Shown here: in pieces, positions 5,301 to 38,190 of the stretch
How positions within the stretch are numbered: position 1 is the first letter of the stretch
Layout of the letters: each line of letters starts with the position of its first letter
Origin: Promethearchaeota archaeon
GTDB taxonomy: Archaea; Asgardarchaeota; Heimdallarchaeia; Hodarchaeales; Hodarchaeaceae
Direction of reading: 5' to 3'
DNA length: 64,000 nt
Assembly (NCBI GenBank): GCA_048938105.1
Contig: JBHLMN010000001.1
Location: 32,001-96,000, forward strand
Notes under the pieces: model-generated
Told to the model about the DNA's origin: nothing
The model's database searches: none
What the model saw: the letters and a program-made list of their open reading frames with translations, nothing else
Position numbers and translations under genes: made by a program

Positions 5301-5450
5301 AGACATTATAAAAGATTCACTTTTTAATCCAGGTAGATTCCTATCTTGAAAGACATAAACCAAACCTGTGTTTGAATTAATCGTGTACATTAAACTTCCA
5401 ATATTCAATATCAGAGCAGTTAATACAATAATATGTCTGTACCTTACCAT
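2373..5450 (-). CDS. Surface/membrane protein: signal, beta-sandwich, Ig-like repeats, TM, degenerate cytoplasmic longin/uDENN-like domain, acidic tail
   Basis: Hydrophobic N-terminus; D-x-x-G-N and D-x-x-x-P repeat motifs; TM FLGLLIMEIIIVTAFVSVFTAI; cytoplasmic part aligns by eye with the two upstream paralogues (ILMWEP vs VIWEP; LLMLVMREKWG vs IVLLLRKEWG). Confidence 0.85.
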   Translation of the reverse strand: MVRYRHIIVLTALILNIGSLMYTINSNTGLVYVFQDRNLPGLKSESFIMSDKSILTPISPFEQESLVDVNSINSQYRELNSGDHVPRFSIQQQYDVLLYETLDEQDTSFSYENKIWADLLGTDSYDSSLYENCLIDPYNTAGNGQGASLFTRIGNNGNDYGIKNESSAVEDLVEYRLSNISAGWQADFPIQNTYKMINISFKWRFDTPNGGFDDYDEFIYGDKVIVRDGTPDFQEIRCRIEHPMDSDKSFWVGNPISETNPNGTVFYRVGSNITQDEEWYTFKYSFQVNPESSNFTLELGAYLNTREFWNEYFDVWFDEIRIIGITDIPDNNPPQPLDMGLDRTNNISIFEFWANFSEGTWESSIKNVTVFYNQSGVEYNKTLNSSLNYLPPSYVTNAGYIQTKWQFFTPFNFSDEITFYFVTFDYANNSFVSEIQSTIIGDYSPPVIESTVINQTGTGLITISVNITDWGYGIDTLVLNYTIDGEIQDPISITGSGTDYQAIFTLNISQFYGKTVEFGISFNDTVAGNSDFYPGVRIVAVTDEVLPEIHMVTITPNSTVEERTHVTVRASDPFGEIDEVYLVVRYENGSIFEAYSHVLLKNTTTPGLYVLGKIAGVAALQLPFSEDYENYSITVVVRDKATPDPNEYSETYYYVVRDELAPKVRIENLEYSQPGLLQVRVQASDLGSGIESVILEKRTKDGWTNRINMTQEGNRYIAKIYTGWLGNEQIQFRVYAVDNEGNEINEENRPIGKYTTKIFFSTFLGLLIMEIIIVTAFVSVFTAIKVAQSQRLKALRRRRFEAALGRSERLAYLGEEAMFGFIAAYGQREGVSSILMWEPQLIGHFYQYLKELTDKANNNVAFIMQTRPQDQVTFVDFKIEEIGCSAITFAYPVSTLPQQWLSALTLDQVPVGGGQGILLLMLVMREKWGETANNFQEEIKDGIIELKDLICSGEDKDTILRKAQEFRLFISGTLEVLDEIEIETDEISEEIMGDFESEFLDFPDDDSDKDEADETDPSKSTSEND

Positions 5451-25000: not shown

Positions 25001-28000
25001 GAAAATTGTGCCATTAGCATGTGAGCGATTACTTTCAGTATCATCTACAGTTACGCGTACTCTAAACAATTCATGCATAGTCAGATGTTTATTGGAGTAG
25101 AATAAAGAAGTACTACTCTCTTTGTAGAGATATTCAGAATCTGGAATAATGATATTGATGACATTTACACTTGGTTTTGTAATATCTAAATGTAGTTTAA
25201 AATCTGCAGAATTCGAGTTGCCCACCTGGTCATAGATTGTTATGGTATAGCTTCCTGTCTTATTTGTTGGCTGAATGGAATATTGCCATTGCCAATAACG
25301 AGCATGAGACGTGCCATTCTTTGTACTAGTATTATCATAATTATCTCCTCCAAAAATTTCAGGGAAAGATGCTTTTTTCACTCCAGAATTGATACTAGGA
25401 ATGGATTCTTCAGCAAGCACAGTTACTGTAAAGAGAGGAGTGCCTGTGCTTTTATTAGAATAATAAAGGAGTGTTTCGTTTACAGGATGCATGTATTCTT
25501 TGATTGCATCTTCTGTAAATCCTATTACTGTTATTGTTGGTTTTATTTTGTCTTTTAAGAAAGTTACAGTTTTTATATCTGTGTTGTTTACTCTATCTAC
25601 TCCAGTAATTATTATATTTGTCTCTGGGTAGGATTGTTCTAAATCATTGGCATGGATAGTATAAGTGGCTTCCCAAACTGGAGTCCCTACATCTTCTGGA
25701 GGGGAATCTCCAAAATGAGTGGTGAAATTTACAGTTAAATAACCAGAGTCCCCATCATTTATAGTTCCATTGATTACTACATCAACTCCACTAGGATCCA
25801 TGAGATTACTAAAGTAGAAGTATGTTCCAATAATATAAAGATAAGGACTTCCTGAGGGATTATCAACTAGATCAATAGCCACATTTGGTGCTGTATTATC
25901 CTCACGAAACTGGAATGTATCTATAAAGGAATTATTCACATTATCAGTGGCTGTATAAGTTATAGTGACATCATCATAAATGATAGAATCTCCTGAATCG
26001 ATCTTATACGTAAATGTCCAAGCATTTAGCGACCCACCTCGAATTGGGTCATTTCCAAATAATGTATTATCAGTAATAGAAAGCAATCCTGATCCGCTCC
26101 CATCACTGGCATCTCCACCCACTATAAAATCAGTTAAAGTCAGTCCCATATTATCGGAATAGAATCCATGATCTGAACTCCCATCATAATAGAGATAATC
26201 TGACAACTCGCTAGTACTTACTGGATTATAGGCAATACTTGGATTGGTGTTATCCTCTCTAAGTTCAAAAGAAGCAATAGCGGTATTTGCCACATTATCG
26301 GTAGCAGTATAAGTCACCGTAAAGGTACCATTCCCAGCATCCCCTTGATCAATGGCATAAGTAAAGATCCAGCTCGCTAAGGTGCCACCACGAGGGAGAT
26401 CATTCCCAAAAGCAGTATCATCCTCTATAGATAAAAGATCCGCTCCTCCATCGCTAGCTGTTCCTCCCACGATGAAATTAGTATCTACAGCACCCATGTT
26501 ATCTGAATAATAACCATGAGCAGAACTCCCATCATAATAGAGATAATTTGAAGACTCGCTAGTAGTTACTGGATTATGGGCAATACTTGGATTGGTGTTA
26601 TCTAATCGAAATTCAAAAGTATCACTAGCATTTATACTTGATGTTTCGACTATGAATGCAGTAAAAGTAATAATAAATGTATTAAAGATTGAATCAGATG
26701 AATTAATGGAATAAGTGAAACTCCATGTGTCACTTGTACCACTTAGGGAATCATTAAGGGGATTATTTCCAAAAGATGTATCATCCCTTACAATGAATAA
26801 AGTTCCTGTTTCTGTACTGACTGTTCCTCCAACAGTGAAATCGACTGAAGTACTTCCCATATTATCCGAATAATAACCAAAATCGGAACTCCCATCATAG
26901 TAAAGGTAGGGGGACGATTCTGATATAAAGGCTGAGTCAATAGTGATGATGATTTGGCCTACAAGCTCAATTGCATCATATTGAAATTCTAAATAGTTAC
27001 CAGCATTATTTATAATCCTAATTATAAATGTACCATTCTTATCTCCCCAATAATTAAAATCTTTAAGGTCAGGTAGCCCACTGGTATCATTTATTGCAAC
27101 TCCAAATGTGTTATTCTTATCCCATTCAATTTTCCAAAACCCACTATTATTAATATCTCCAGTATTAAGAACTGTGACAGTAAAGTAATCATTTTGCTGA
27201 CTATCAAAATAAATTGAAGAGCCATCAAAAAAGGCATTATCAAATGGAGCACCATCAGCTCTATCCCAATCTAAAGTAAAGCCTTCGGGGGAATCAGTAT
27301 CGACAATAACCCATTGTGTTGAATTATCACCTTCATTCCCGACATGATCTATTACTTTAAGGTCAACAGTATGATTTGCTTCAGTCATGGTATATTGTTT
27401 AGTTATCTCTGATTGCCATACAAATGCTGCTCCATCATAGCTAAATCCATAAGGAGAACCAGGTAATCCTGATCCAGTACCATCTGTCGCTGTTCCTCCT
27501 ACTGTAAAGTCAACGGTGGGATCATCATAATAATTAGTATTGGGAGCATAACCAATCGTTTTCGGATCTGCATCTAAAATTAACCAGTAACTACTTGGAT
27601 TAATGATATCACGACTAATAGTTATTGATGTGGTACCAGCATTCCCTAAGAGATCATAAACAGTGATAAGTAAGCTGCCACTCCATGAGTCAGCATTGGT
27701 GATATTGACTACTGGTACGTCATAGGTTCTTCCTGCTTCAGTATCCTCCGTATCATCAGTGCGGTCTTCAGGGGATCCTCCAAGATTAGCGGCTGCAATT
27801 GCATAATTCAACCCAACACCTGTTCCATCATCCGTGTTTACCCCCACAGTAAATTTCGCCTCACTTGAACCCATGTCGTCTCCATACCACCATATTGAAC
27901 CATTCCAATAGATGTAATCCTCTTGACCATTTGCAACTTCGTATTGGTGGGTATAATCTATAGTTGCAGAAGGAGCTGTATCGTCTAAAGTAATGTTATT

Positions 28001-31000
28001 AATTCCTGTAAAAGTGGTATTAGTTCTCCCAGCTTTGTCTCTGATAGTAATTGTAATAAAGGTTACCCCATCAGTATAGCTTGGATCAAGGTTGATAATT
28101 GAATAAAACGGACTAGATTGACCTTGACCTGCGTCACTTGCTTGATCACCGTTTAGATTACAGACCACTTGAATGGAGTATACATTAACTTCATTAAAAC
28201 TAATGCTATAATTTGCAAAACCAGTTTCTCCTTGATCATACCAATTTGGAGAGTAATCTGGTAAAATAAAGTTCGTTGTGATTGATTTAGGATTGATTGT
28301 ATCAACATGTACCTCATAGGAGCGATTAAAGAGGCCATAATTTCCTACTTTATCAACAGCTACAGCCCAAAAAGTGTAATCACCATCATCTCCTATATCG
28401 ACAGGATATACGAAGGGATCATCAGATGAATTATATGCATCAGGCGAATTATCATCAACATCGAAAACCACTGTGTTTATTCCAGAGGCACCATCAGCAA
28501 TCGGGGATGGATTGATTGAGAACCCGCTTCCATCTTGATCCCAACCAGCTACTGGAGATCCATCATTACCAGATGCGGTAATACTCGCCATCGTCGGACC
28601 AGTGGTGTCTGCTGTAGTGATAAGAGTTACTCTCTGACTTAATCCACATTGATTAATTATGTCGACTGTAATACTCCCTATAGCCCCTGTATTAGAATGA
28701 TAATTTTCAGAGAGATCAGTTGAAGAGAAGGGAGGAGACGAATCATTAACAGGTGAAGCAATTCCCCAACCCTCGCTGAATACCACACGCCAGGGTCCGC
28801 TATTTCCCCAGTCACCTGAACTATCCATTGATATACTCCATTCTGTATCACCTCCGTTTCCCAGAAAAAGTTCTCCCGAAGTGATATCAGACGAATCAGA
28901 TATCCAAGCGTAAGAAGGAGCCGCCAAAGTCCATATCCCTGTGCCAATTATATCTATATCCATTCCCGTTGGTGTTTCTGTGGAGTAATATACATCAATA
29001 TTGGGGGAAAATGTAGATGTAGCATTGTTACCTACATTGTCTACAACTTGGTACCAGATAGTATTGATGGTTTCGGCTGTAAGTGGGCACGAAACATTTG
29101 ATCCATCAGTAACAGAATCGCCATAAGTTCCTGTCGTATTAGACTTAATCTTTAGGATATAAATACCAGAGCCATCTTCAGTACGGTATACTGTAGCGTT
29201 AAAGGTTGAATCATCATAAAAAGCTTGTATAGTGGTGTTTCCTTTAGTCGGTAGGTATCCATCACCATTATTATCAGTATTGTCATAATAATCAGCAATC
29301 GATATTGCTGAAGGATCATCATTGTCCTCTCGAAACTCAAAAGTCATTATAGCAGTGTTGTTAACGAGATCGGTGGCTGTGTATTTCACCCTAAATATTC
29401 CATTCCCAAAATCTCCTTGGGTGATGTTATAAGTAAATGTCCAACTTGATAACGTCCCACCCATACCTGGATCTTTTCCAAAAGTAGTATTATCTACTAT
29501 AGATAAAAGACCCGCTCCTCCATCGCTAGCTGTGCCTCCTATGACAAAATCAGTACCTACAGGACCCATATTATCTGAATAATAACCATGAGTAGAACTC
29601 CCATCATAATACAGATAAGCAGAAGCCTCAGTTGTCGTACTGGAACTAAAATCAATCGTTGGGTCAGTATTGTCTTCACGAAACTCAAAGGAAGTGGTAA
29701 AGAAATTTCCCACATTATCAGTCGCATTGTAGGTTACCGAAAAGGTGCCGTTCCCAGCATCCCCTTGATCGATCTCATATGTAAATGTCCAGCTGGTTAA
29801 GGTACCACCACGAGGGAGATCATTCCCAAATGTAGTATCGTCCTCTATAGACAAAAGATCCGCTCCTCCATCGCTAGCTGTGCCTCCCACAACGAAATTA
29901 GTATCAATTGAATCCATGTTATCTGAATAATAACCATGAGTAGAACTACCATCATAATACAGATAGGGAGAATCCTCTGTTGTCGTACTGGTACTGATTC
30001 CAATAGTCGGATCAGTATTATCTTCCCGAAACTCAAAAGTTATGATATTGCTATTGTTCACCCTATCAATGGCTTTATAGGTCACTGTGAATGTCCCATT
30101 GTTCTTATCCCCTTGATCAATGGCATAAGTGAACGTCCAACTCGTAAGGGATCCCCCTCGTGGGGGATTATTCCCAAACGCAGTATCATCTTCGACTGCT
30201 AGCAATCCTACGCCTCCATCACTTGCAGTCCCTCCTATGATGAAATCATTATCCACAGAACCCATATTGTCCGAATAATAACCATAAGCAGCACTTCCCT
30301 CATAGTAGAGATAAGGAGACGATTCACTAGTTGCACCTGGATTATGTGTAATGGCAGGAATTGTATTGTCCTCTTTAAACTCAAAGTAAGCAGGTTTAGT
30401 ATTACCAACACGATCAGTGGCTGTGTACATAATTACGAACGTATGCTGGGCAGAGTCACCTGAAGTAATGCTATAAGTAAAGATCCAGTCCGTTAATGAT
30501 CCACTATTACTTGGATCAGTTCCAAATGTGGTATTATCAATTATTGAGAGTAAACCTGCGCCACCATCGCTTGCTGTGCCACCCACCACAAAATCAGTTG
30601 GCGTACTTCCCATATTATTCGAATAGTATCCATAAGCTGCAACGTTATCATAATAAAGGTAATTAGACGACTCACTTGTTGTACTTGGATCGTGATTATT
30701 AGTTGGATCAGTGTTATCTACACGAAATTCGAATAATGTTGTCCCATTATTACCTACATTATCAGTAGCAGTGTAAATGATGTTAAAGGTTCCTTCAGAG
30801 GAATCATCTGAATCGATGGTGTATGAAAAAGTCCAACTACTTAATGAACCACCTCTACTTGGGTTATCACCAAATGTAGTGGTATTATCGGTAACCAATT
30901 GCATACCTGCATCTGCATCATTAGCTGTTCCCCCAACAATAAACGTTACAGTTGTTAATTCCATGTTATCTGAGTAATACCCATGTGCAGAACTCCCATC

Positions 31001-34000
31001 ATAGTAGAGATATGGTGATGATTCACTCGTTGTACTTGGATTATGGCCAATTGTAGGATTGGTATTGTCTCGACTAATTAGTATTGTACATGAATTGTTA
31101 ATATTCCCAACTTGATCAGTTATAGTCAAAACAAGATTTATATTGGGCCCTATATCGGCTGAATTAATATCTACAACTGGGACATCATATGTTCTTCCTG
31201 CTTGAGTATCCTCTGTTTCATCCGTTCTTTCTGCAAGTGTTCCACCAAGATCGGAAGCAGCGCTTGCATTTTTTAAACCAGCACCAGTTCCATCACTTGC
31301 ATCGATTCCCACTGTAAAATTCGCTTCATTAAGTCCCATGTTTACTCCATACCACCATTTCGAGTTTGAAGCATCCCAATAGAGATATTCACCATATGCA
31401 GTCTCATATTGGTGTGAATAGTCTATTGTGGCCGAAGGGTTATCATTATCTTCTCGAAATTGAAAGGTTACGATATTGCTGTTGTTCACCTTATCAGTCG
31501 CTTTATAGGTCACTGTGAATGTCCCATTGTTCTTATCCCCTTGATCAATTGCATAAGTAAATGTCCAACTCGTAAGAGATCCCCCTCGTGGGGGATTATT
31601 CCCAAAGAAAGTATCATCCTCGATTGCTAATAATCCTACACCTCCATCACTTGCAGTCCCTCCTATGATGAAATTAGTATCTACAGGACCCATATTGTCC
31701 GAATAATAACCATAAGCAGCACTTCCCCCATAAAAGAGATAATCAGATGATTCACTAGTGGCACTCGGATTATGCGTAATAGTAGGATTAGTATTGTCTT
31801 CTCGAAACTGAAAAGAAGTAGTATTAGTATTTCCCACATGATCCTTGGCAGTATAGGTTATTAAAAATGTCCCATTATTCTTATCCCCTTGATCAATCTC
31901 ATAAGTAAAAGTCCAGCTGATTAAGAAACCACCTTGCGGGGGATTATTGCCAAAAGAAGTGTCATCCTCGATTGATAATAACCCCACACCCCCATCATCA
32001 CCTGCAGTTCCTCCTACGATGAAATTAGTATCTGCAGTTCCCATATTATCTGAATAATAACCATATCCCGAAGCGCTATCATAGAAAAGGAAATCAGAGG
32101 CCTCACTTGTTGTACTTGGATCGTGATCAATATTCGGAGCAGTGTTGTCCTCGTAAAACGTAAATGAAGTAGTCTTGGTATTACCTACTTTATCATTGAC
32201 TATATAATTTACAGTAAATGATCCAAACGAGGAATCACCTGAATCGATAGTGTACGCAAAAGTCCAAGCCGTTAATGAACCGCTATAACTTGGATTGTCC
32301 CCGAAAATTGTATTATCTTGAACATACTGTAGTCCTGCACCTCCATCACTAGCAGTGCCTCCTACATTGAATGTTTGTTTTGTACCCTCCATATTGTCTG
32401 AATAGTAACCATAATTAGAAAGAGTATCATAATAGAGATAGGGAGAGGTCTCATTAGTAGCACTGGGTTCGTGAGTGATGGTAGGATCATTGTTATCCTC
32501 TCGAAAAGTGAAAATAGTTATAGCAGTGTTGTTAACAAAGTCTGTTGCTGTATATTTCACTCTAAATGTCCCATTGTTCTTATCTCCTTGATCAATTACA
32601 TATGTAAATGACCAGCTTGCTAACGAGCCACCACGAGAGGGATCATTCCCAAAGCTGGTGTTATCCACAATAGATACTAGACCAGCCCCACTATCACTAG
32701 CTGTCCCTCCTACTACAAAATTGGTATCTATAACACCCATATTATCTGAATAATAACCATAAGCTGAACTCCCGTCATAATATAGATAATTAGAGGCCTC
32801 GCTCGTGGTACCGGGATTATGGGTGATGGTAGGATCGGTATTGTCCTCTCGGAATTCAAAGCTGACAGTATTACTGTTATTCACTCTATCAATGGCAATG
32901 TAAGTCACCGTAAAGGTGCTATTCCCTGCATCCCCTTGATCAATTTCATAAGTAAACGTCCAGCTGGTTAAGGTCCCACCACGAGGGAGATTATTCCCAA
33001 AAGTAGTATCATCTTCTATAGATAAAAGACCCGCTCCTCCATCGCTAGCTGTACCTCCCACGATAAAATCAGTATCTACAGAATCCATATTGTCTGAATA
33101 ATAACCATAAGTAGTACTCCCCTCGTAGTAAAGATAATCAGATGACTCGCTAGTGGTACCAGAGCTATGGGCAATTGTAGGATTGGTATTGTCTATCCTG
33201 AATTCGAATTCAGTAGTATTAGTATTTCCTACGTAGTCTGTAACGGTGTATGTTATAACAAACGTACCATAGGAGGTGTCTCCTGATGTAATTTCATAAG
33301 TATAGATCCAACTACTATATGATCCCCCCATAGAAGGATTTCCACCGAAATCTGTATTATCAGTAAGTGATGCAATTCCTGAGCCTTCATCGCTTGCAGT
33401 ACCACCTATTATGAAATCAGTCGGTGATGCCCCCATATTATCCGAATAATAGCCATATGTTGAGCTAGTATCGTAATAAAGATAATCTGATAATTCACTG
33501 GTCGTTGCAGGATTGTGCTCAATCGTAGGGGGAGCATTATCCCATCCAATGTCTGGAAGGCTTGCAGCCAGAGTTGGATCGATATAAACTTGAGGTCCAT
33601 AGACATTCTGAACTCCTTCTATGGCAGATCCCACCGTTATATCATCCCTTTCTTGGATAGTCCCAGCTGGGGGATTTTCTTCTACATCATTCCTTATTAA
33701 GCCTGTTGTTGCCCCATAAGCTCCAGTATTTCCAACATATCCAACATAAACCTCTCCAGCATACGGATTTGAAGTATAATTCCACACTGCAGAAACAGTA
33801 ATCCAGATCTCATCGTCTGACGCGTCATTATCCTCCCAAAACCGAGAACCATCATTATACTTATGACTAGATATAGTGATGGCTGTAATTTTGACACAAT
33901 CAACTGCCACTTCGACATTTGTGTTGTTAAGATAGTGGGTGGCGCCATCACCCGCAAGATCCACGACTGGATAGTAGGAATAATTCCCTACTGTAGATTC

Positions 34001-36646
34001 TGAATCAGCAGAAACACTGAACGACGCGACACTGCTAGATATTGTGGTTTCGTCTCCAGTAGTAGGATTTGCAGGGTCTCTAAAAATAGAGACTTGATCA
34101 ATTTGTGCATCTGGAACTGAATAGGAAGTCCCTTTATAACGAATAATTCCTGTGAATGTGAGATCTGACGCATTATTCGGATTAATAGACGAATCATCTG
34201 AAGTAAAAGAAGAGACAACGATATCATGATTGAATGAATAAGTACTTATCGAATTTTCATTATCCGAATGTGCTAATGAGTCATTTACAAATGCCTCAAT
34301 TGGAATCCCTGTTCCTGTGGGAAAATCCCAGTCAAATGTAATGTCAAACGTTACTGATAAATCATTCACAGAGCCAGTTCCGCTTGCTGAACTTAGACTC
34401 ATGTTATTTAAGGGATCCCAGATTTCACTATAGCTACTATCAGTCCTATTGTATCCGACTGAGAATTCAACACCATTTACTGTAAAATTCAGTTGGACAT
34501 ATTCAATATCTGTATAGCCAGAGAGATCTGTCGCATTCACTCGAAAAGTATAATCTTTTCTCTGGGAATGAATTTCTCCCTCATCGTCATTAGTGACAGT
34601 AATTTCTGTTATTTCAGGTATATCATTTTCTTCACTATCAATAGTTATTGTTGGAGGAGTTTCCACCGCAGCCATCACTGCCCACACGCCTATTTTCATA
34701 TATGAAAAAGTAGTACTTTCGTAAAACGTTAGTGAACCACTTGAAGGAAGTCCACTTGCAGTGTGGCTTAATGTCCATGCACTTGGCTCGTTATTCCCAG
34801 TTGCCCAACGTTTTCCTTTAAGGGTATCTCCTACAATCTGGAATTTATAAAAATACCAAAGTGCAGTGGAGTAACCTCCACTTATTGAAGTATATTGGAT
34901 AGTAGAGCCAGTATATCGACGAAGAGATATGGCAGTTGAATTTTGATCTAAATAGAGATAATTTGGTCCACCAATGTTTGTCCTTAAACTAATAGAAGAG
35001 CTTGTGGAAGCTATTGCTTTATACATTACAAATACTTGAGTGTTATTGGTTACTAGATTTGATCGTTCAAGTGTCCCATAAGCTGTATTAGATCCTGACG
35101 CGATATTATTATTAGTCCACCATCCGATGTTGGTGGGTTTTGTTCCATCAGTTGTCGCAGCCCAAGATGTTGTAATATAGGAATTTAAGTTTCCACTGCT
35201 AAAGTCATCATAATCTATGAAGATTTTTGAAGTGTCTGAAGGAGGATTCCCAGGATCTCCGGACCGAAAACCATAATAAATTGCATAATTATGATCTGAT
35301 GAAGATGCAGTTATTGTTTTTTGGAGTTTAAAGAACACTGCAGTTTTTTGTGTATTATTTTTCAGAACCACCCTGTTTAGTTCATACCAGGTTGAATCAG
35401 TTTCGTTATAGTAGACCACTCGTAGATCCTTACAATCAGCTCGCAGTTTGGACGCAGAAACCAGAGTTTGTGTATCTAAATCTACTTGGATAGTATAATT
35501 TGTCCCAATTTCGGATCCTGCTGTTATTCTAACTTGCTTGACGTATTGGTAGTTGCTATTCCACCACGAAGGACTCCCTGTTATATCGCTAAACGCAAAA
35601 TTTGGTTGCAAATAGGGATATGCAACGTCAACTAATGGAGAAGTTGATTCCTCCTCAATAGTTGTATCAATATGCTCTGTTTCATTTAATTGTAAATCTA
35701 CTTCACTATCTTCGATCGTTTGCTCAATTTTGGGATAAACAACGCTAGCGCCTGTTCCTGATAGTGCCTGTAATTCAAATGCTGTTGATAAGTCCTTTAC
35801 CATTTGAAGTGAGAAATAACCATTTCCTAAATCTCGTCGTTCGTACACTCGGTTAAAGAATGTGAAACGCGTTACACCTTCCTCCTTTTCTTCAGGAAGA
35901 GAGGTGAGGATATTCTGCACTTGAGTGATTATTGTTAGGGGCATCATCAGAAGAATGATTCCAAATAACAGCAACAAAATGTTTCCAAACTGCTGTGGAT
36001 AAACTATTGATAAGCCAAATAATCCAATGGTTCCTAGGATGAGTAAGAATAACTGACTAGGGATCCCTGTTATTGGGGTCAAATGAAATCGTATTTGTTC
36101 AAATTGGATTCCTTTTAGGCTGTCACTGGCATTCCATGACGAGAAAGACACCTCAAAATATTCTAACTCTTTGAAAGCGGTAGTATTAAAATTAAATTGA
36201 ATGTTTGTTCCACGGTATAAATCCAAGGCATTTATTACTTGAACAGAGTTGTTCACTCCCTCAATAGTAGCCAATTCAAACGGAAAAACGTTAATTGTAA
36301 CATTATGTAACCCACCCCAACAAATAAAACTGGTAGTTTTGGTTGTGAATAACATTTGCATACGTAATGAGAGCATTTCAAAAGGTTCTTTGGGAGTCTT
36401 GAAGATGAACCGGAATTTATAGGCATCCTGTTCACTAATCGCCTCTTGGATCTTCATTCCACTTTCTGACCTATAACTCTGATTATGAAGCCCATTAGTA
36501 ATAGTTCCATCCTTCCCAAACGCGAAATAATTGCTAAAAGGATAAATTGTATTGTTTGGCTGATTCATGGACACTGATGATATCATTAAAACTAGGAGAA
36601 GCAATAAGATCGCTTTTAAAAAGTATTCTTGGTATTTTAGTGTCAT
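10076..36646 (-). CDS. Giant 8856-aa surface protein: signal, TM hairpin, DUF2341-like and lectin-like domains, dozens of ~116-aa Ig/cadherin-like repeats, TM, cytoplasmic longin/uDENN-like domain
   Basis: 26.6-kb uninterrupted ORF with GAGGA upstream. DUF2341-like WWNSNYQY...DLRVVYYN; repeated ES.YLYY...YYS[DN]...D..GN...DN..P units; TM PFVILLIIVILLAFAYITV; NFFDQVKGPVP; FAVPDPEARGG. Confidence 0.92.
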   Translation of the reverse strand: MTLKYQEYFLKAILLLLLVLMISSVSMNQPNNTIYPFSNYFAFGKDGTITNGLHNQSYRSESGMKIQEAISEQDAYKFRFIFKTPKEPFEMLSLRMQMLFTTKTTSFICWGGLHNVTINVFPFELATIEGVNNSVQVINALDLYRGTNIQFNFNTTAFKELEYFEVSFSSWNASDSLKGIQFEQIRFHLTPITGIPSQLFLLILGTIGLFGLSIVYPQQFGNILLLLFGIILLMMPLTIITQVQNILTSLPEEKEEGVTRFTFFNRVYERRDLGNGYFSLQMVKDLSTAFELQALSGTGASVVYPKIEQTIEDSEVDLQLNETEHIDTTIEEESTSPLVDVAYPYLQPNFAFSDITGSPSWWNSNYQYVKQVRITAGSEIGTNYTIQVDLDTQTLVSASKLRADCKDLRVVYYNETDSTWYELNRVVLKNNTQKTAVFFKLQKTITASSSDHNYAIYYGFRSGDPGNPPSDTSKIFIDYDDFSSGNLNSYITTSWAATTDGTKPTNIGWWTNNNIASGSNTAYGTLERSNLVTNNTQVFVMYKAIASTSSSISLRTNIGGPNYLYLDQNSTAISLRRYTGSTIQYTSISGGYSTALWYFYKFQIVGDTLKGKRWATGNNEPSAWTLSHTASGLPSSGSLTFYESTTFSYMKIGVWAVMAAVETPPTITIDSEENDIPEITEITVTNDDEGEIHSQRKDYTFRVNATDLSGYTDIEYVQLNFTVNGVEFSVGYNRTDSSYSEIWDPLNNMSLSSASGTGSVNDLSVTFDITFDWDFPTGTGIPIEAFVNDSLAHSDNENSISTYSFNHDIVVSSFTSDDSSINPNNASDLTFTGIIRYKGTSYSVPDAQIDQVSIFRDPANPTTGDETTISSSVASFSVSADSESTVGNYSYYPVVDLAGDGATHYLNNTNVEVAVDCVKITAITISSHKYNDGSRFWEDNDASDDEIWITVSAVWNYTSNPYAGEVYVGYVGNTGAYGATTGLIRNDVEENPPAGTIQERDDITVGSAIEGVQNVYGPQVYIDPTLAASLPDIGWDNAPPTIEHNPATTSELSDYLYYDTSSTYGYYSDNMGASPTDFIIGGTASDEGSGIASLTDNTDFGGNPSMGGSYSSWIYTYEITSGDTSYGTFVITYTVTDYVGNTNTTEFEFRIDNTNPTIAHSSGTTSESSDYLYYEGSTTYGYYSDNMDSVDTDFIVGGTASDGGAGLLSIEDDTTFGNNLPRGGTLTSWTFTYEIDQGDAGNSTFTVTYIAIDRVNNSNTVSFEFREDNTDPTITHNPGTTSEASNYLYYDGSSAYGYYSDNMGVIDTNFVVGGTASDSGAGLVSIVDNTSFGNDPSRGGSLASWSFTYVIDQGDKNNGTFRVKYTATDFVNNTAITIFTFREDNNDPTITHEPSATNETSPYLYYDTLSNYGYYSDNMEGTKQTFNVGGTASDGGAGLQYVQDNTIFGDNPSYSGSLTAWTFAYTIDSGDSSFGSFTVNYIVNDKVGNTKTTSFTFYEDNTAPNIDHDPSTTSEASDFLFYDSASGYGYYSDNMGTADTNFIVGGTAGDDGGVGLLSIEDDTSFGNNPPQGGFLISWTFTYEIDQGDKNNGTFLITYTAKDHVGNTNTTSFQFREDNTNPTITHNPSATSESSDYLFYGGSAAYGYYSDNMGPVDTNFIIGGTASDGGVGLLAIEDDTFFGNNPPRGGSLTSWTFTYAIDQGDKNNGTFTVTYKATDKVNNSNIVTFQFREDNDNPSATIDYSHQYETAYGEYLYWDASNSKWWYGVNMGLNEANFTVGIDASDGTGAGLKNASAASDLGGTLAERTDETEDTQAGRTYDVPVVDINSADIGPNINLVLTITDQVGNINNSCTILISRDNTNPTIGHNPSTTSESSPYLYYDGSSAHGYYSDNMELTTVTFIVGGTANDADAGMQLVTDNTTTFGDNPSRGGSLSSWTFSYTIDSDDSSEGTFNIIYTATDNVGNNGTTLFEFRVDNTDPTNNHDPSTTSESSNYLYYDNVAAYGYYSNNMGSTPTDFVVGGTASDGGAGLLSIIDNTTFGTDPSNSGSLTDWIFTYSITSGDSAQHTFVIMYTATDRVGNTKPAYFEFKEDNTIPAITHNPGATSESSPYLYYEGSAAYGYYSDNMGSVDNDFIIGGTASDGGVGLLAVEDDTAFGNNPPRGGSLTSWTFTYAIDQGDKNNGTFTVTYKAIDRVNNSNIITFEFREDNTDPTIGISTSTTTEDSPYLYYDGSSTHGYYSDNMDSIDTNFVVGGTASDGGADLLSIEDDTTFGNDLPRGGTLTSWTFTYEIDQGDAGNGTFSVTYNATDNVGNFFTTSFEFREDNTDPTIDFSSSTTTEASAYLYYDGSSTHGYYSDNMGPVGTDFVIGGTASDGGAGLLSIVDNTTFGKDPGMGGTLSSWTFTYNITQGDFGNGIFRVKYTATDLVNNTAIMTFEFREDNDDPSAISIADYYDNTDNNGDGYLPTKGNTTIQAFYDDSTFNATVYRTEDGSGIYILKIKSNTTGTYGDSVTDGSNVSCPLTAETINTIWYQVVDNVGNNATSTFSPNIDVYYSTETPTGMDIDIIGTGIWTLAAPSYAWISDSSDITSGELFLGNGGDTEWSISMDSSGDWGNSGPWRVVFSEGWGIASPVNDSSPPFSSTDLSENYHSNTGAIGSITVDIINQCGLSQRVTLITTADTTGPTMASITASGNDGSPVAGWDQDGSGFSINPSPIADGASGINTVVFDVDDNSPDAYNSSDDPFVYPVDIGDDGDYTFWAVAVDKVGNYGLFNRSYEVHVDTINPKSITTNFILPDYSPNWYDQGETGFANYSISFNEVNVYSIQVVCNLNGDQASDAGQGQSSPFYSIINLDPSYTDGVTFITITIRDKAGRTNTTFTGINNITLDDTAPSATIDYTHQYEVANGQEDYIYWNGSIWWYGDDMGSSEAKFTVGVNTDDGTGVGLNYAIAAANLGGSPEDRTDDTEDTEAGRTYDVPVVNITNADSWSGSLLITVYDLLGNAGTTSITISRDIINPSSYWLILDADPKTIGYAPNTNYYDDPTVDFTVGGTATDGTGSGLPGSPYGFSYDGAAFVWQSEITKQYTMTEANHTVDLKVIDHVGNEGDNSTQWVIVDTDSPEGFTLDWDRADGAPFDNAFFDGSSIYFDSQQNDYFTVTVLNTGDINNSGFWKIEWDKNNTFGVAINDTSGLPDLKDFNYWGDKNGTFIIRIINNAGNYLEFQYDAIELVGQIIITIDSAFISESSPYLYYDGSSDFGYYSDNMGSTSVDFTVGGTVSTETGTLFIVRDDTSFGNNPLNDSLSGTSDTWSFTYSINSSDSIFNTFIITFTAFIVETSSINASDTFEFRLDNTNPSIAHNPVTTSESSNYLYYDGSSAHGYYSDNMGAVDTNFIVGGTASDGGADLLSIEDDTAFGNDLPRGGTLASWIFTYAIDQGDAGNGTFTVTYTATDNVANTAIASFELREDNTNPSIAYNPVSTSELSDYLYYDGSSDHGFYSDNMGLTLTDFIVGGDASDGSGSGLLSITDNTLFGNDPIRGGSLNAWTFTYKIDSGDSIIYDDVTITYTATDNVNNSFIDTFQFREDNTAPNVAIDLVDNPSGSPYLYIIGTYFYFSNLMDPSGVDVVINGTINDGDSGYLTVNFTTHFGDSPPEDVGTPVWEATYTIHANDLEQSYPETNIIITGVDRVNNTDIKTVTFLKDKIKPTITVIGFTEDAIKEYMHPVNETLLYYSNKSTGTPLFTVTVLAEESIPSINSGVKKASFPEIFGGDNYDNTSTKNGTSHARYWQWQYSIQPTNKTGSYTITIYDQVGNSNSADFKLHLDITKPSVNVINIIIPDSEYLYKESSTSLFYSNKHLTMHELFRVRVTVDDTESNRSHANGTIFNDQDTSSDYSNNYYQLTYWVDYNEFEGGSVAITGYDLVGNNETSYLTVKLDNNPPTPVIYYVYTTTEHLYYNSTGTKRLYYSDDQVMFADFTIQVTADDGTGAGLLNATGEAKFGETVRLDTTYDEGYNLTYQININELEPITTNITIWVFDQVGNNEIVKLLCLEDNDPPSSLLITNVIETSPFIYYDVSRKILFYSNDQPQDESFSIRITAADAKVGLKNATGEENEFNDTNINDINYLPKGYYELSYIISQSDYATEGKVVYTVYDLCGNWNTVNLTATLDNKAPQDVFIDQVIEGSNYIYLKNDSGSLTLYVSTLSLSSETFSIYINNTEPSSESGRLLANGSLYFGESPSTTSYQYVLTYSIDPGDTAFNGTSIVIETYDKVGNKNSTSLPIYVDHTPPHKTSLFFNDHESDYLHDDGTQFFFSANMLSVQTMTINGTASDGGGVGVHRIISENAFGSTFSPNYGTYWSFDYEIDSLDSEQYTTGFIRIFLIDRVNNSRQVDVPYVSDNEGPSSVNIHEITEDLLAEYLHYVSGTTAILWYSNVRTDKGPRKFTVKVTSVDTGGAGLRNASFPDIGAGFSSGGYDTNYALDFWNYSYTALNGAHNGSVTIKVWDNVANSNTTSFYLYLDNTGPKNLAFSELTEDSVFIHYTGTTLYYSNDPSIISPQIFTLKISAKDIHSGLFSGNGSYDFGEQHNTTSSDGYFSLQYGIEAGESASNNLLSINVYDNVGNNETFYLTCVNDATPPAQPTIIGIIESSCNIYYNSSTKILWYSSDQTMSDSFTIRITTSDSQSGLHKATGSLEFGSTPSDLSYTPENYYQLPYVIDTGEGTSGGITITIYDRVNNSNEYTLQVNLDDTPPKSLTIEYVDTYSSEYLYYNITLQNHTLYYSNDQEMNEQFSIFVTAHDGSGVGLFNATGENDFGDVGVSDSDYVSNYVLHYNIGQSENATNNETIIWVYDRVGNSATVNLTSVLDNDPPVLVVLHHLEENSDYLYYDETKKIFFYSSDQSMNDEFTLQLNVTERSSGVKNVTGSSDFGETTPFTTTNSTGQFWIQYTVSESETAGVDNKIIITVYDRVGNINNNYELSAILDDDPPAQIQIEGIIESSEFLYYDGTILFYSNYRTLQNEVFNVNITCEDLASGRLIVKGGTAFGEQPSSSDYTNDYYLISYTVSYEETSPTQFSVTVYDNVNNYESRPVNCTKDNFSPHSLSILDVIESSDFLYYNGSSKELYYSNQNPTMSESFTIRITCIDDDAGRLNATGEPDFGDPKPGDISYLPGNYYELDYTVDPGNIATKGYIQLFIFDRVGNNESINLVCRLDNTAPTGDIDTIIESSPHLFYNDGTERFYFSNNQGMSDSFTIRVTSTDVGINQSGRLNATGEYEFLDSGVGDTDYSTYYELVYTIDENDGVSDENVTIKLYDRVGNYLELNLTCIEDNIAPTFIHIDSVQVYNSYYLYYATSTNTLFYNNQNPMNDPVRINITASDGTGAGLRSVNGSIDFNEQHNSTEYLPSWGYSLVYYVNSGETASDNEIRFYVYDKVGNYASNKTNAFLDITEPYVAIQTVIEDSEYLHYSGGVLYYSNHTIGMHEKFTIRVIGSDSGGAGKLNATGEDDFNSFDVGDTDYTTYYELEYYVDYGGYASEGSVSIYFFDRVGNSKTTSLPCTLDNTPPSGLAIESVGENAVNLYYEPGIGLFYSNDTIGLDSEFYVIILASDPISMLQNATGSLDFGEFGFDLSYSNGYNLSYIVSYDEDVGDDEKIVIKVFDHVGNYNTINLSCIVDNTPPTITIEYPDSKVWNKTDGGVSLFGGNVFDNGGTYKSGIDTNSYAFTEFDEVISSYIGSPNQSFVNEAPGGNTWRNTFNITTIDNANVTLTVYVSDRVGNRNKYSVQVWHDDTDPSISYNWIIFLGGDDELLEAGKTTDVYYSINDNASIYFDIDFDVSGLGSPSFFSGLFSAEYQTDDGSGWYTIFDYSSDPSLIDFTDDWQILNWIDTLFNGPNTIDLRVTDEAGNVFTHNYIPGTSGFNFLLTKNGPAIATASVLGNEQYISDTTIYDWDGTDFILNFNYTSVAPLDQISIYSDQNAIIQVYNFADLQWSNDGNNYYLSNKLINYDFGTEGNRSIFIRAKDSTEWYSSWTQMWLFVDEYVPEISLSTITELNLSWTIYANAADKKLYFSDKMGNSHAGFNVTVNAVDSGSGMTGGFVHFEDFDSGAVASQDVVDTAVFWVNSLTTNGIWVQAYAVDASNRTSNVESLVQVVQDVTDPVVDIMSVIESSEFLYNVGNTMLYYSNYHVGMHELFEVRVTVDDGSGSGRVNATGTAFLETDSSTDYTAGYYSLYYFVDKDDLEGASITITGYDLVGNSATDSLPLANDNDPPDPLTIVNVDDSFSDYLYYDGTLYYSSDQSMNDPFIIYLTAIESSSGIQNVTGSFDFNEFASSFKESGGFYNLTYNVGTGESASGGKITLTVFDNVGNSKNINLSCILDDDRPEFVTIEGIIKDSFLLYYSGTTLYYSNWHSSQDEQFSINITSNDLISGLMRVDGSMAFTDSPSSSDYSQGYYLVDYTVMKDETAPEDQITITVYDQVMNSRSTTLTLQKDNTKPSISINTVVETSPYLYYNDSSKKFYFSNDQPMSDQFTIQITGSDTGGAGRFNATGEADFNDPISGDPSYLPQNYYQLNYTVDLGDPVSNGYIRIWLYDRVGNNNSIDLTCIEDNVAPSGSIEEVVESSPHLYYNSTSGEFYYSNDQVFSVSFSISVTASDNVVGASLQKIVGEDDFNNSGVFDNDYSDYYWLTYFISKSDYATEGQLELTLYDNVGNTFPINLICHRDNDPPKIDLAKMAIDEHTDYTHYLKDGTQILWYSNRMPFDIDFQITVTTNDSTFPSDSGLYRIRFPTFFNTTVFNTTNPTQTYYISNASSSSGFMTFTSFDNCGNSASTSLEVRRDNTKPKGFIISIEETPESLFVHETQDLESYNTNGFIPELWYSDNMGLSAVPVNITLNATDPGSVFAGIANITFPGIGTEGVQEVTSTTIYYSRTYTLSTSDDTTATIDFTIIDNVYNAYIVRLHVIKDTTPPTIHFTDVTDPIYDVIGTELDNDSNWYDQGVLTSGFMISSAPLDLPNGPYPKSGIYTVYLDWVSTGSPDRMGVDLGKDGDGTIFGIENDTDGIITLTLTAYDHVGNTNQTSITIQFDNTKPVYFDNTVLHQNGNISLSGQAFDAGSDVQNITIRDLSGNHFQNIISEDFADWTVNNNSAFNDITPSQNVLIELEVYDNVHNSIKYNATITYHTLSFFVLKHNIPKHVEIDDPGVWDIIIGIEYDNKIINKSNNIIDRRVNETQFVVQIAGTSMPINSLIWAPTDEHNFTLAISLPGRSAIENLTIGATFGEQLRLIWAILDSNIEVEIDYQKSDVVIYHDLEIKYEEDNVEIIETDNTDNDIMNVTLYLEKDYSPYTGNLAIENIIFTVNETQATFLGAEHLGNGYHNITIQLPQHLDTGSKDLDFVWTLGTGIYQYVVESNTSAAEKPAGIVIYHDIVIDASIPESLRVFEVDGDFYFLVNFTVTEDKGDKSYDLIDNSDLQCLIIKGQDLTYLIDNNDSTSLGNYFFDFTLTDDITPKSWVGDILVRFRIQNPISELYEWGETYIQGHDLQMTINTIETTRVGSDLHEFDPDDRTTFYITFTVQDSNGTISPVTTLNASNFVWMDLINVESANENVSLDNIVDWFDFQDPPTPGKYIIEFVLDSIQASELGLNFINLILTINDKFGHNVTNSKVDLESKDFVTLLGLEWIITPYGRFNFTEVNATLDYTFRLSVGDEITVCFKIYKLEVPGKIPTTDKVTIFWDHTPWNATDTLWYSPDESEFVNITVKSDRLSPSRPFIAYAEGNSEKQFSLAPWRFYLEWAKIQATTEAVDDNTEDDNNSVLNVNGMYDLTYSAQIYRSSKASLVKTGGVIFNINIELWQFLGGQWVSLNPFSIDHSDGSGNITSTFHNGTTKVGIIKIIDEMENIDDADGQINIQLKFSEVIKVNLDVRIADEMNEGSNKAYRFYSSYPEEYEYPGSVFSYINETADADYKATVIWTKFQVRMWAADSRIPQLTSCKIHVEAFYAHDFSIPLDGVLLTIRDNVSAAETSNNVWVNHRIKFEGITHTVNKVMFNITKDGFKDQKFGITVFEHITTKARDIRVEIIWDRVIFRISLAEPWGSLLRFNVNTHGSVQIQAYYEYDNTPFNGVITVLHDYYQNISLAPQYWNVSVPVTLPILYQDEPGDALFLIEDIVSDKWGLSVNETRLGFQVLSTTEDVPFLSLSWDRIIIKFPDETIFQPGESITISLIAEYESDHKAVTNLIYNLTKDGEMVPEIAEVNRTLKFFSDHEMYSINHTYQIIDAYDPITGLTGAYSVIKEVNPFVSISWYDTLAPILLEQTLIDFGDGTLGIGVMVTDDKPEKYFGSGIEEVTAWLTIERSPRPGRRVTLDLFTNTSSGLFYFIVISTDTTSVRDNFYYNARLNYTIQIKDKRGNTVSYEFPTKLVFDSLAPKIAFLELRYDDSSDGNLTIAINASDFWSGLETASIRFFDPTTSSWMEPHNMNYREINGTTREFWFNSIFDVGATVKYQLNVTDNFGNSGIIKGSILITDEAGPQLVDCVFKYNPFGEFSIEIEVGDNGAQIDNATLYYYIKGKGVPVSLDEVLSGGSGGSLLQSPNYLYKKTFTKKFTILDFLSSNTVQFKLSLTDSEGNERIITNSELSKFLAGLSPEGFAIPPASFELISNPFVILLIIVILLAFAYITVQRLRTIRGFDKGKIMDDLVKVADNEVWEQNDNISIGLVANFFDQVKGPVPIIVFPDKMRTSEAMLASLADRSFSTLGFVAKPEEDKHATFRFQVGGERCTVFGYAFAVPDPEARGGQENLSICFVIRPPFGNLENINKFLNELLENIRKIRELMASQADVKVVQKEMENTRNFFTRVMLLFRRKYKQEFIE
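25880..26940 (-). repeat. Three further copies of the same ~348-bp unit
   Basis: G[YF]YSDNMG anchors near 26863, 26501 and 26153; DNA near 26330-26560 closely matches 29750-29960 and 32920-33110. Confidence 0.85.
29330..33540 (-). repeat. In-frame tandem repeat array, 348/351-bp unit (116/117 aa): 6 units, one divergent unit, then 5 units
   Basis: The GYYSDNM-type anchor recurs at about 33440, 33092, 32744, 32396, 32048, 31697 and then 30968, 30617, 30269, 29921, 29573. Confidence 0.9.
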
Positions 36647-37985: not shown

Positions 37986-38190
37986 CGTAGTTAATAAATT
38001 CTCATGTGAACCGCCACCAGCTAAAGCAAGGGGCTTCCTACGAGTTCGCCGAACCCCTTATCAACAAGATGAGGGGAAACTTTCGTTTTACCATTGACTG
38101 TATATCGTAGATTATCAATCCGATTTATGAAGTACTGATAACCCGTCCACAGGGCATTGTGTGAGAGAAATCGCTTCATTATGTTGATCG
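37986..38190 (-). ncRNA. Putative TnpB omegaRNA/reRNA (scaffold over the tnpB 3' end and right end, guide from the flank); 5' boundary approximate
   Basis: Known TnpB architecture plus the right-end hairpin ending in TTCAC; predicted guide ATGAGAATTTATTAACTACG (38005-37986). Confidence 0.55.

What the first reader, a model, noticed from the sequence alone, without database searches (positions are those of the whole stretch)
35920..36646. The giant protein appears membrane-anchored at both ends
After the signal/TM1 and a ~170-aa domain there is a hydrophobic hairpin (LFLLILGTIGLFGLSIVY-PQQ-FGNILLLLFGIILLMMPLTII, about aa 197-240). About 8400 extracellular residues and the C-terminal TM follow. 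The TM parity is self-consistent and leaves the longin domain inside. An uncleaved protein would form a huge surface loop or tether, for example bridging membrane protrusions or sensing tension, rather than a free-ended adhesin.
Basis: partly seen in the sequence, partly recalled or inferred. Interest (0 to 1): 0.7.

Follow-up and report, generated by a model that had tools for sequence, protein, structure and literature searches.

The report
Giant archaeal surface protein tethered twice
An 8,856-residue surface protein of a Heimdall-group (Hodarchaeales-type) Asgard archaeon has, near its start, a conserved pair of membrane-spanning helices as well as its membrane anchor near the end, so its roughly 8,400-residue outer part is made as a closed loop held to the cell at both ends.

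Summary
The ORF at window 10076-36646 (minus strand, 8,856 aa) has only four hydrophobic segments: a signal-peptide-like segment (aa 9-27), two segments 3-6 residues apart (aa 197-216 and 223-241), and a C-terminal helix (aa 8647-8665) ahead of a folliculin-like longin tail. AlphaFold2 twice models the pair as two helices that break at Y216/P217.

The module is conserved. Eighteen relatives keep both segments free of charged residues. They share a P-x-[K/R]-F turn, a small-residue face on helix 1 and an invariant proline in helix 2. Five N-glycosylation sequons lie in the preceding CBM-like domain. Three other full-length orthologues (7,561, about 8,820 and about 10,060 aa) show the same four segments and tail. 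In no relative is the N-module a separate gene.

The hairpin is specific to the giant. Its two linked paralogues, their orthologues and about 20 other large surface proteins in this genome have only a signal peptide and a C-terminal helix.

So double tethering at synthesis is well supported in silico. Later cleavage in the acidic linker is not excluded, and the loop or tension-sensor function is untested. A first-stage note on another genome flagged the same hairpin. No tool here predicts membrane topology directly.

The parts
10076..36646 (-). Giant gene, 8,856 aa, one open frame. An SD-like GAGGAT lies upstream of the ATG.
36566..36646 (-). aa 1-27: Sec-type signal peptide or signal anchor. 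It has K4/K11, a Leu-rich core at 12-22 and a c-region SSVSM. Relatives end in [ST]-x-A before (R)PDNT.
   Evidence: whether it is cleaved was not determined
36059..36565 (-). aa 28-196: extracellular CBM-like beta-sandwich. It has 6 N-x-S/T sequons, 5 of them conserved in 17-18 of 18 relatives.
   Evidence: pLDDT 76-93; CBM28 Z 9.4, rmsd 3.2, 135 aligned; CBM27 Z 9.1; CBM15 Z 8.5
35999..36058 (-). aa 197-216: hairpin helix 1. It is moderately hydrophobic, has no charged residue in 18/18 relatives, and has a conserved small-residue face at positions 205/206, 208, 211 and 213.
35981..35998 (-). aa 217-222: tight turn PQQFGN, inferred to face the cytoplasm. The family consensus is P-x-[K/R]-F, with P217 in 16/18, F220 in 15/18 and 1-2 K/R in 16/18. 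This protein and its closest relative have no K/R here.
35924..35980 (-). aa 223-241: hairpin helix 2. It is strongly hydrophobic (KD 2.75), P236 is invariant (18/18), and the modelled helix runs on to aa 249.
35732..35881 (-). aa 256-305: juxtamembrane element GVTRFTFF..YERRDLGNG.FSL.MVKDLSTAFELQALSGTG..VYP. At 78% mean pairwise identity it is the best conserved part of the N-terminal region. It is modelled as three strands plus a short helix, at low confidence.
35567..35731 (-). aa 306-360: acidic, poorly conserved linker modelled as disordered (18% identity; 13 D/E against 2 K/R in aa 306-372; pLDDT 25-39). It is a possible processing site.
10721..35566 (-). aa 361-8642: ectodomain. It starts with a DUF2341-like region (aa 404-495, sub-threshold), followed by Ig-like repeats with a period of about 116 aa. 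It has 196 sequons against about 132 expected and no hydrophobic segment.
10652..10720 (-). aa 8643-8665: C-terminal transmembrane helix (KD 2.94), followed by RLRTIRGFDKGK.
10079..10651 (-). aa 8666-8856: cytoplasmic folliculin-like longin tail.
   Evidence: PF11704, E 1.1e-4, 22.5 bits against a cut-off of 23.3; earlier scan notes
5454..10076 (-). Paralogue B, 1,540 aa: signal peptide plus C-terminal helix only, no hairpin. Serves as a comparison.
   Evidence: the orthologue in G002 is the same
2373..5450 (-). Paralogue C, 1,025 aa: signal peptide plus C-terminal helix only, no hairpin. Serves as a comparison.
   Evidence: the orthologue in G002 is the same

Best explanation
The first ~305 residues are a conserved, lineage-specific membrane-anchor module fused to a giant type-I surface protein. 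The inferred biogenesis is as follows.

1. The Sec signal peptide starts export of a glycosylated CBM-like beta-sandwich (aa 28-196).
2. Helix 1 (aa 197-216) stops transfer.
3. A 3-6-residue P-x-K/R-F turn stays on the cytoplasmic face.
4. Helix 2 (aa 223-241) acts as a reverse signal anchor and restarts export.
5. About 8,400 residues of Ig-like repeats are exported.
6. The last helix (aa 8647-8665) stops transfer and leaves the longin domain in the cytoplasm.

The ectodomain is therefore made as a closed extracellular loop with both feet in the same membrane, not as a free-ended stalk. With about 72 repeats of about 116 aa, my estimate of its contour length is roughly 300 nm.

What is shown in silico: the four hydrophobic segments, their conservation, the two-helix model, the extracellular signatures on both flanks, and the fusion in all relatives.

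What is inferred: the membrane insertion itself, the loop persisting in the mature protein, and the function. My best guess at function is that the hairpin keeps the N-terminal lectin-like domain and the very conserved juxtamembrane element at the membrane, beside the signalling end. This is the TM-ectodomain-TM-output layout of bacterial chemoreceptors and sensor kinases, so binding or pulling on the loop could be reported to the longin tail.
For: - Only four hydrophobic segments occur in 8,856 aa, and two of them are 3-6 residues apart.
- AF2 gives two helices breaking at Y216/P217 in both runs.
- In 18 non-identical relatives both helices have zero charged residues. Their sequence identity is low (26% and 36%, against 52% for the N-domain), which is the pattern expected of membrane spans.
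- P217 is kept in 16/18, F220 in 15/18 and P236 in 18/18. Helix 1 has a small-residue face.
- The turn has 1-2 K/R and no acidic residue in 16/18 relatives. The flank after helix 2 is net acidic, which fits the positive-inside rule.
- Sequons at N55, N115, N132 and N154 are kept in 18/18 and N172 in 17/18. The N-domain has 6 sequons against 2.5 expected (P=0.02) and the ectodomain 196 against 132.
- Full-length orthologues P0028 (7,561 aa), G002:C87 (8,821-aa frame) and G001:C10 (10,069-aa frame) have the same hairpin region and longin tail; G001's helix 1 scores below the scan threshold.
- No stops were found in 10 loci.
- The hairpin is unique to the giant among 40 frames of 1,500 aa or more in this genome, and it is absent from paralogues B and C and from their G002 orthologues.
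Against: - No dedicated topology or signal-peptide predictor was available, and there are no experimental data.
- Helix 1 is only marginally hydrophobic. It scores about +0.5 kcal/mol here on the memory-typed Hessa scale, and up to +4.6 (KD 1.07-1.46) in three relatives.
- This protein's own turn (PQQFGN) has no positive charge, and its closest relative has PEQFGN.
- AF2 confidence over the hairpin is moderate (pLDDT 66-72), and no model coordinates or PAE could be inspected.
- The acidic linker after aa 305 is disordered and unconserved, so cleavage there cannot be excluded.
- The family is small and confined to one GTDB genus (12 of 20 genomes; 0 of 19 in other families of the class). The 18 sequences are therefore not independent.
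Confidence: 0.65

Rival explanations
1. Made with two anchors but then cut. A protease cleaves the acidic linker (aa ~306-370). This leaves a small membrane protein (CBM-like domain, hairpin and conserved juxtamembrane element) and an ordinary free-ended type-I giant. The N-module would then serve biogenesis, or act as a separate subunit that may rebind the stalk non-covalently.
For: - The linker is the least conserved stretch (18% identity), strongly acidic and modelled as disordered.
- The 50 residues just before it are the most conserved (78%), as expected of an interaction surface that survives cleavage.
- All other large surface proteins of this genome are free-ended type-I proteins.
Against: - No known autoproteolytic motif is conserved. 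The SEA-like 'G-SVV' in SGTGASVVYP has Q, K, R or F in place of S in relatives.
- The fusion is kept in every relative over about 45-80% identity.
- There is no direct evidence of cleavage.
Confidence: 0.22
2. Helix 1 does not cross the membrane. It would lie at the interface or pack on the N-domain, so the region is not a true two-span hairpin. Helix 2 alone, or a re-entrant loop, would hold the N-terminal end.
For: - Helix 1 is rich in Gly, Ser and Thr (35% small residues).
- It falls below usual thresholds in P0021, P0022 and G001 (KD 1.07-1.46).
Against: - A single span would put either the sequon-rich 8,400-aa Ig-repeat region or the sequon-conserved N-domain in the cytoplasm, and the longin tail outside.
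- Helix 1 is charge-free in 18/18 relatives and about 19-20 residues long.
- It ends in a conserved Pro followed by K/R, and it is modelled as a helix antiparallel in sequence to helix 2.
- From established knowledge: marginal helices commonly insert as hairpins with a strong partner.
Confidence: 0.08
3. Artefact: the N-module and the giant are two genes joined by an assembly or sequencing error, or the true start lies after the hairpin.
For: Giant repeat genes are often misassembled. Most database relatives are contig-end fragments.
Against: - The same continuous frame from the same start is seen in 10 independent genomes with no stops. Three of these frames are 7.5-10 thousand aa long and end in the same tail.
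- An SD-like GAGGAT sits before the ATG.
- The module is never found alone.
Confidence: 0.02

Closest known systems
Two-TM sensor topology of bacterial and archaeal methyl-accepting chemotaxis proteins and sensor histidine kinases (TM1 - outside sensor domain - TM2 - cytoplasmic output). The Wzc-type polysaccharide co-polymerases have the same layout.
   Same: The outside domain is flanked by a membrane helix on each side, and the output domain sits in the cytoplasm directly after the last helix. So both ends of the outside part are fixed in one membrane.
   Different: The outside part here is about 8,400 aa rather than about 150-400 aa. The first anchor is a hairpin preceded by a further exported domain, not an N-terminal signal anchor. 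The output is a folliculin-like longin domain, not HAMP, kinase or methyl-accepting modules. There is no sequence relationship. This comparison rests on general knowledge and was not tested by search.
Ordinary type-I large surface proteins of the same genome, including linked paralogues B (window 5454-10076) and C (2373-5450)
   Same: They share the signal peptide, Ig-like ectodomain, C-terminal helix with an NPFVIL-type start, and (for B and C) the longin tail. B aligns with the giant's last ~900 aa (25% identity in the G002 orthologue).
   Different: None has the CBM-like domain, the hairpin or the juxtamembrane element.
Giant bacterial RTX adhesins with an N-terminal retention module (LapA, MpIBP, SiiE type)
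   Same: They are very long rods of Ig-like repeats with a dedicated N-terminal module that holds one end at the cell envelope.
   Different: Those are exported by type I secretion, are plugged in an outer-membrane pore, have no transmembrane helices and have a free ligand-binding far end. Here both ends are in the cytoplasmic membrane and export is Sec-type. This comparison rests on general knowledge.
Beta-sandwich carbohydrate-binding modules (CBM28, CBM27, CBM15, CBM4, CBM22)
   Same: The fold of aa 31-192 matches: VIA-align Z 9.4/9.1/8.9/8.5, 135-143 residues aligned, rmsd 3.2-4.8; Foldseek E 1e-5 to 1e-4.
   Different: Sequence identity is 8-13%, and there is no Pfam or PDB sequence match. 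Sugar-binding residues were not examined. Z is only slightly above the tool's stated background of 7-8.

Membership tests
Two-span transmembrane helical hairpin | Two uncharged hydrophobic segments, each about 18-22 residues | tested here: met
   aa 197-216 and 223-241 have KD peaks of 2.13 and 2.75. Both have zero D/E/K/R in 18/18 relatives. Helix 1 is marginal in 3 relatives.
Two-span transmembrane helical hairpin | Short turn with a helix breaker and positive charge on the cytoplasmic side (positive-inside rule) | tested here: inconclusive
   P217 is kept in 16/18 and K/R is present in 16/18 relatives. This protein (PQQFGN) and its closest relative (PEQFGN) have no K/R. The flank after helix 2 is net acidic.
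Two-span transmembrane helical hairpin | Both flanks lie on the same (outer) side | tested here: met
   This is indirect evidence only. Five sequons are conserved in the N-domain, and sequons are enriched on both sides: 6 against 2.5 expected, and 196 against 132.
Two-span transmembrane helical hairpin | Experimentally mapped topology | not testable with these tools
   Needs reporter fusions or accessibility labelling. DeepTMHMM/TOPCONS were not available.
Sec-type cleavable signal peptide | Positive n-region, hydrophobic core, and small residues at -3/-1 | tested here: inconclusive
   K4/K11 and the L-rich core are present. Relatives end in [S/T]-x-A, but the aligned -1 residue here is Met. 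S-V-S|M one residue earlier is a possible alternative site. No SignalP was available.
Beta-sandwich carbohydrate-binding module | Jelly-roll fold covering the whole domain | tested here: met
   CBM28 Z 9.4, rmsd 3.2, 135 of 179 aligned. The hit list is dominated by CBMs. One search agrees.
Beta-sandwich carbohydrate-binding module | Ligand-binding cleft residues or measured sugar binding | not tested
   No coordinates were accessible and identity is 8-13%.
Folliculin-type longin domain (C-terminal tail) | Pfam PF11704 match at the gathering score | tested here: inconclusive
   22.5 bits against a cut-off of 23.3, E 1.1e-4. Earlier scan reports treat it in depth.
DUF2341 (first ectodomain module) | Pfam PF10102 match at the gathering score | tested here: inconclusive
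   22.7 bits against a cut-off of 23.4, aa 404-495.

The most novel reading that the evidence does not exclude
The protein is a closed-loop surface strap that works as a mechanical or contact sensor. The hairpin packs against the C-terminal helix in the membrane. Ligand binding or tension on the ~300-nm glycoprotein loop (for example a loop lying around or between cell protrusions) would shift the helices and switch the folliculin-like longin tail that acts on small GTPases. This would be an archaeal forerunner of eukaryotic signalling from the cell surface to GTPases.
Probability: 0.1. Interest if true: 0.85.

Novelty: new variant of a known kind. Interest (0 to 1): 0.5.

Why it matters
Asgard archaea lack a regular S-layer and carry many large surface proteins. 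These are thought to mediate the cell-cell contacts relevant to eukaryote origins (PMC9834061).

This family would show that the largest of these proteins in a Heimdall-group lineage is not a free-ended adhesin. It would be a loop fixed at both ends, with a eukaryote-like longin domain inside the cell.

That changes what to look for in cryo-tomograms: arches or straps rather than filaments. It also gives a concrete, compact construct (aa 1-420) for testing topology.

It is also a clean natural example of a stop-transfer and restart hairpin placed ahead of an 8,400-residue exported segment.

Tried and rejected
- **Paralogues in the own genome:** tblastn with aa 1-300, 26-198 and 190-300 found none; the best E-values were 0.87-8.
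- **Post-hairpin element versus the membrane-proximal stalk:** Smith-Waterman alignment against the stalks of A, B and C gave z of 0.03, 1.23 and -1.16 against shuffles. The resemblance suggested in an earlier scan note (SGTGASVV versus the Gly loop) is therefore chance.
- **SEA-type G|SVVV autoproteolysis at SGTGASVVYP:** rejected, because the Ser is not conserved.
- **Family and structure searches:**
  - Pfam on aa 1-500 gave only a sub-threshold DUF2341 match.
  - A PDB profile search with A2 gave nothing; the best E was 0.78.
  - The ESM Atlas gave no usable hit.
- **Literature:** four searches found no description of this architecture. Two papers on giant proteins mention Asgard only in passing.
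Contig context for P0023, P0007 and P0028 could therefore not be read. Genome handles were used instead.
  - AF2 coordinates and PAE are not exposed. So I could not see whether the post-hairpin strands dock on the N-domain, or whether the signal peptide packs with the hairpin.
- **Short database hits (72-355 aa):** these looked like stand-alone N-modules, but they are 'partial' contig-end fragments. The odd end of P0011 is an artefact, because its cluster-mate P0032 has the full hairpin.

Full report
**What is there**

The window holds one uninterrupted minus-strand frame, 10076-36646, of 8,856 aa. An SD-like GAGGAT lies a few bases before its ATG.

A Kyte-Doolittle scan with a 19-residue window finds only four segments at or above 1.6 in the whole protein:
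- aa 9-27 (2.43)
- aa 199-217 (2.13)
- aa 223-241 (2.75)
- aa 8647-8665 (2.94)

Sums on the Hessa biological scale pick out the same four segments. Nothing in the 8,400 residues between them falls below +4 kcal/mol.

**Two helices or one**

AlphaFold2 was run on aa 1-360 with 13 aligned sequences and on aa 1-315 with 22. Both runs give H197-215 and H217-249, with the break at Y216/P217. pLDDT over these helices is 66-72.

Each hydrophobic stretch is about 19-20 residues, which is enough to span a membrane.

**Conservation**

A search of 1.84 billion cluster representatives with aa 1-300 found 17 relatives. In every one that starts at a real N-terminus, the module starts at residue 1 and runs on into ectodomain sequence.

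A word-indexed search added 11 proteins of 649-1,664 aa. Their sources name them as Hodarchaeota, Hodarchaeales, Heimdallarchaeota, Kariarchaeaceae or 'Promethearchaeota' MAG proteins, nearly all 'partial'. It also added one protein of 7,561 aa, P0028.

A whole-genome search found the module in 12 of 20 genomes of the same GTDB genus. It was not found in 19 genomes of four other families of the class. There were never internal stops, and open frames reached 8,821 aa (G002) and 10,069 aa (G001).

In an alignment of 18 non-identical N-modules:
- Both helices contain no D, E, K or R in any sequence.
- Mean pairwise identity by region:

| Region | Identity |
|---|---|
| Helix 1 | 26% |
| Helix 2 | 36% |
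| N-domain | 52% |
| aa 256-305 | 78% |
| Following linker | 18% |

- P217 is kept in 16/18, F220 in 15/18 and P236 in 18/18.
- Helix 1 has a face of small residues at 205/206, 208, 211 and 213.

Hydrophobicity and a few structural residues are constrained while the rest of the sequence is free. That is the pattern of real membrane helices that pack against something.

**Which side is which**

The turn between the helices carries one or two K/R and no acidic residue in 16 of 18 relatives. The stretch after helix 2 is net acidic. By the positive-inside rule (established knowledge), the turn is cytoplasmic.

This protein and its nearest relative are the exceptions (PQQFGN, PEQFGN). Their turn is still less negative than the flank after helix 2.

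The N-domain has sequons at N55, N115, N132 and N154 in 18/18 relatives and at N172 in 17/18. It has 6 sequons against 2.5 expected from shuffles (P=0.02). The ectodomain has 196 against 132. Both flanks thus look like exported glycoprotein, and only an even number of spans between them allows that.

The C-terminal helix is followed by RLRTIRGFDKGK and a tail that matches Pfam Folliculin just under threshold. Earlier reports of this scan analysed that tail as a folliculin-type longin domain.

**Both ends in relatives**

Three other full-length orthologues show the same layout:
- P0028 (7,561 aa)
- the G002 frame (8,821 aa)
- the G001 frame (10,069 aa)

Each has a signal-peptide-like segment, the hairpin region, no other strong hydrophobic segment, and a C-terminal helix about 190 residues before an almost identical tail. 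G001's helix 1 scores KD 1.42, below the scan threshold, but is charge-free in the alignment.

The ectodomain varies by about 2,500 residues between species while the two ends stay the same.

**Specific to the giant**

The two downstream paralogues (B, 1,540 aa; C, 1,025 aa) have only an N-terminal segment and a C-terminal helix. The A-B-C cluster is conserved in G002, where B and C again lack a hairpin.

Among 40 open frames of 1,500 aa or more in this 5.85-Mb genome, about 20 have the plain type-I pattern. Only the giant adds the hairpin. The module has no paralogue in the genome.

**The other parts of the module**

- **N-domain.** aa 31-192 fold as a CBM-type beta-sandwich. VIA-align gives Z 9.4 to CBM28, 9.1 and 8.9 to CBM27, and 8.5 to CBM15, in a list dominated by carbohydrate-binding modules. 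Foldseek agrees. Z is only a little above the tool's stated background, so 'lectin-like' is a lead and not a finding.
- **Signal peptide.** In relatives it ends in [S/T]-x-A before (R)PDNT, a typical signal-peptidase site. Here the aligned -1 residue is Met, so cleavage is uncertain. If it is not cleaved, the N-terminal end simply has three spans.
- **Juxtamembrane element.** The most conserved element is not the hairpin but aa 256-305, just outside the membrane. It is modelled as a three-stranded meander plus a short helix, at low confidence. I could not assign it a fold or a partner. It is not related to the C-terminal stalk.

**Interpretation**

The best-supported reading is a stop-transfer and restart hairpin, which leaves the giant ectodomain as a loop with both feet in one membrane (confidence about 0.65).

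The main rival is later cleavage in the acidic, disordered, unconserved linker at aa 306-370. I found no conserved autoproteolysis motif there, but I cannot exclude a protease (about 0.2).

A non-spanning helix 1 is possible on hydrophobicity alone in a few relatives. It would break the parity that all other evidence supports (about 0.08).

A gene-fusion artefact is excluded by ten independent genomes.

Function is inference only. The layout resembles two-TM sensors with a cytoplasmic output. From about 72 repeats of about 116 aa, I estimate a contour of roughly 300 nm.

**Prior knowledge**

Four literature searches found no description of this architecture. A preprint on giant genes notes only that Asgard archaea hold most of the archaeal proteins longer than 10,000 aa. 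The Lokiarchaeum ossiferum paper describes complex surface proteins and no ordered S-layer.

A first-stage note of this scan on another genome flagged the same kind of hairpin (an SPRK turn) without follow-up.

**Limits**

No topology or signal-peptide predictor was available. The family is small and closely related, so the 18 sequences are not independent observations.

Noticed in passing
window 35732-35881 (-), aa 256-305: This 50-residue stretch just outside the hairpin (GVTRFTFF..YERRDLGNG.FSL.MVKDLSTAFELQALSGTG..VYP) has 78% mean pairwise identity across relatives. That is far above the N-domain (52%) and the hairpin (26-36%). It has no known fold, motif or paralogue. It is probably an interaction surface.
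   Followed up: partly
own genome G000: C39 (+,167147; 3,549 aa), C28 (-,79231; 2,580 aa), C27 (-,17844; 1,619 aa), C13 (+,2416; 1,530 aa): Four other large type-I surface proteins have their last hydrophobic helix about 200-300 residues before the end. They may carry cytoplasmic tails like the longin tails of A, B and C.
   Followed up: no
protein P0024: This 1,540-aa relative has 63% identity over the N-module, yet GenBank names it under 'Bacteroides sp. SM23_62_1'. It is probably an Asgard contig placed in a bacterial bin.
   Followed up: no
proteins P0005 and P0007-P0010: The ectodomain content after the linker differs between orthologues. P0005 goes straight into Ig-like repeats, whereas the query and P0007-P0010 have a DUF2341/LamG-like block first. 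Total length ranges from 7,561 to about 10,060 aa while both ends stay constant.
   Followed up: partly
protein P0007 (649 aa): This is the only relative not flagged 'partial'. It ends about 350 residues into the ectodomain on a 20-kb contig. It may be a frameshifted or split copy in a Kariarchaeaceae MAG.
   Followed up: no
window 38021-39325 (-) and 36996-37904 (-): Upstream of the giant gene are an IS605-type TnpB (Pfam Cas12f1-like_TNB E 1e-19, HTH_OrfB_IS605) and a ThiN-domain protein. Neither has an evident link to the giant gene.
   Followed up: no
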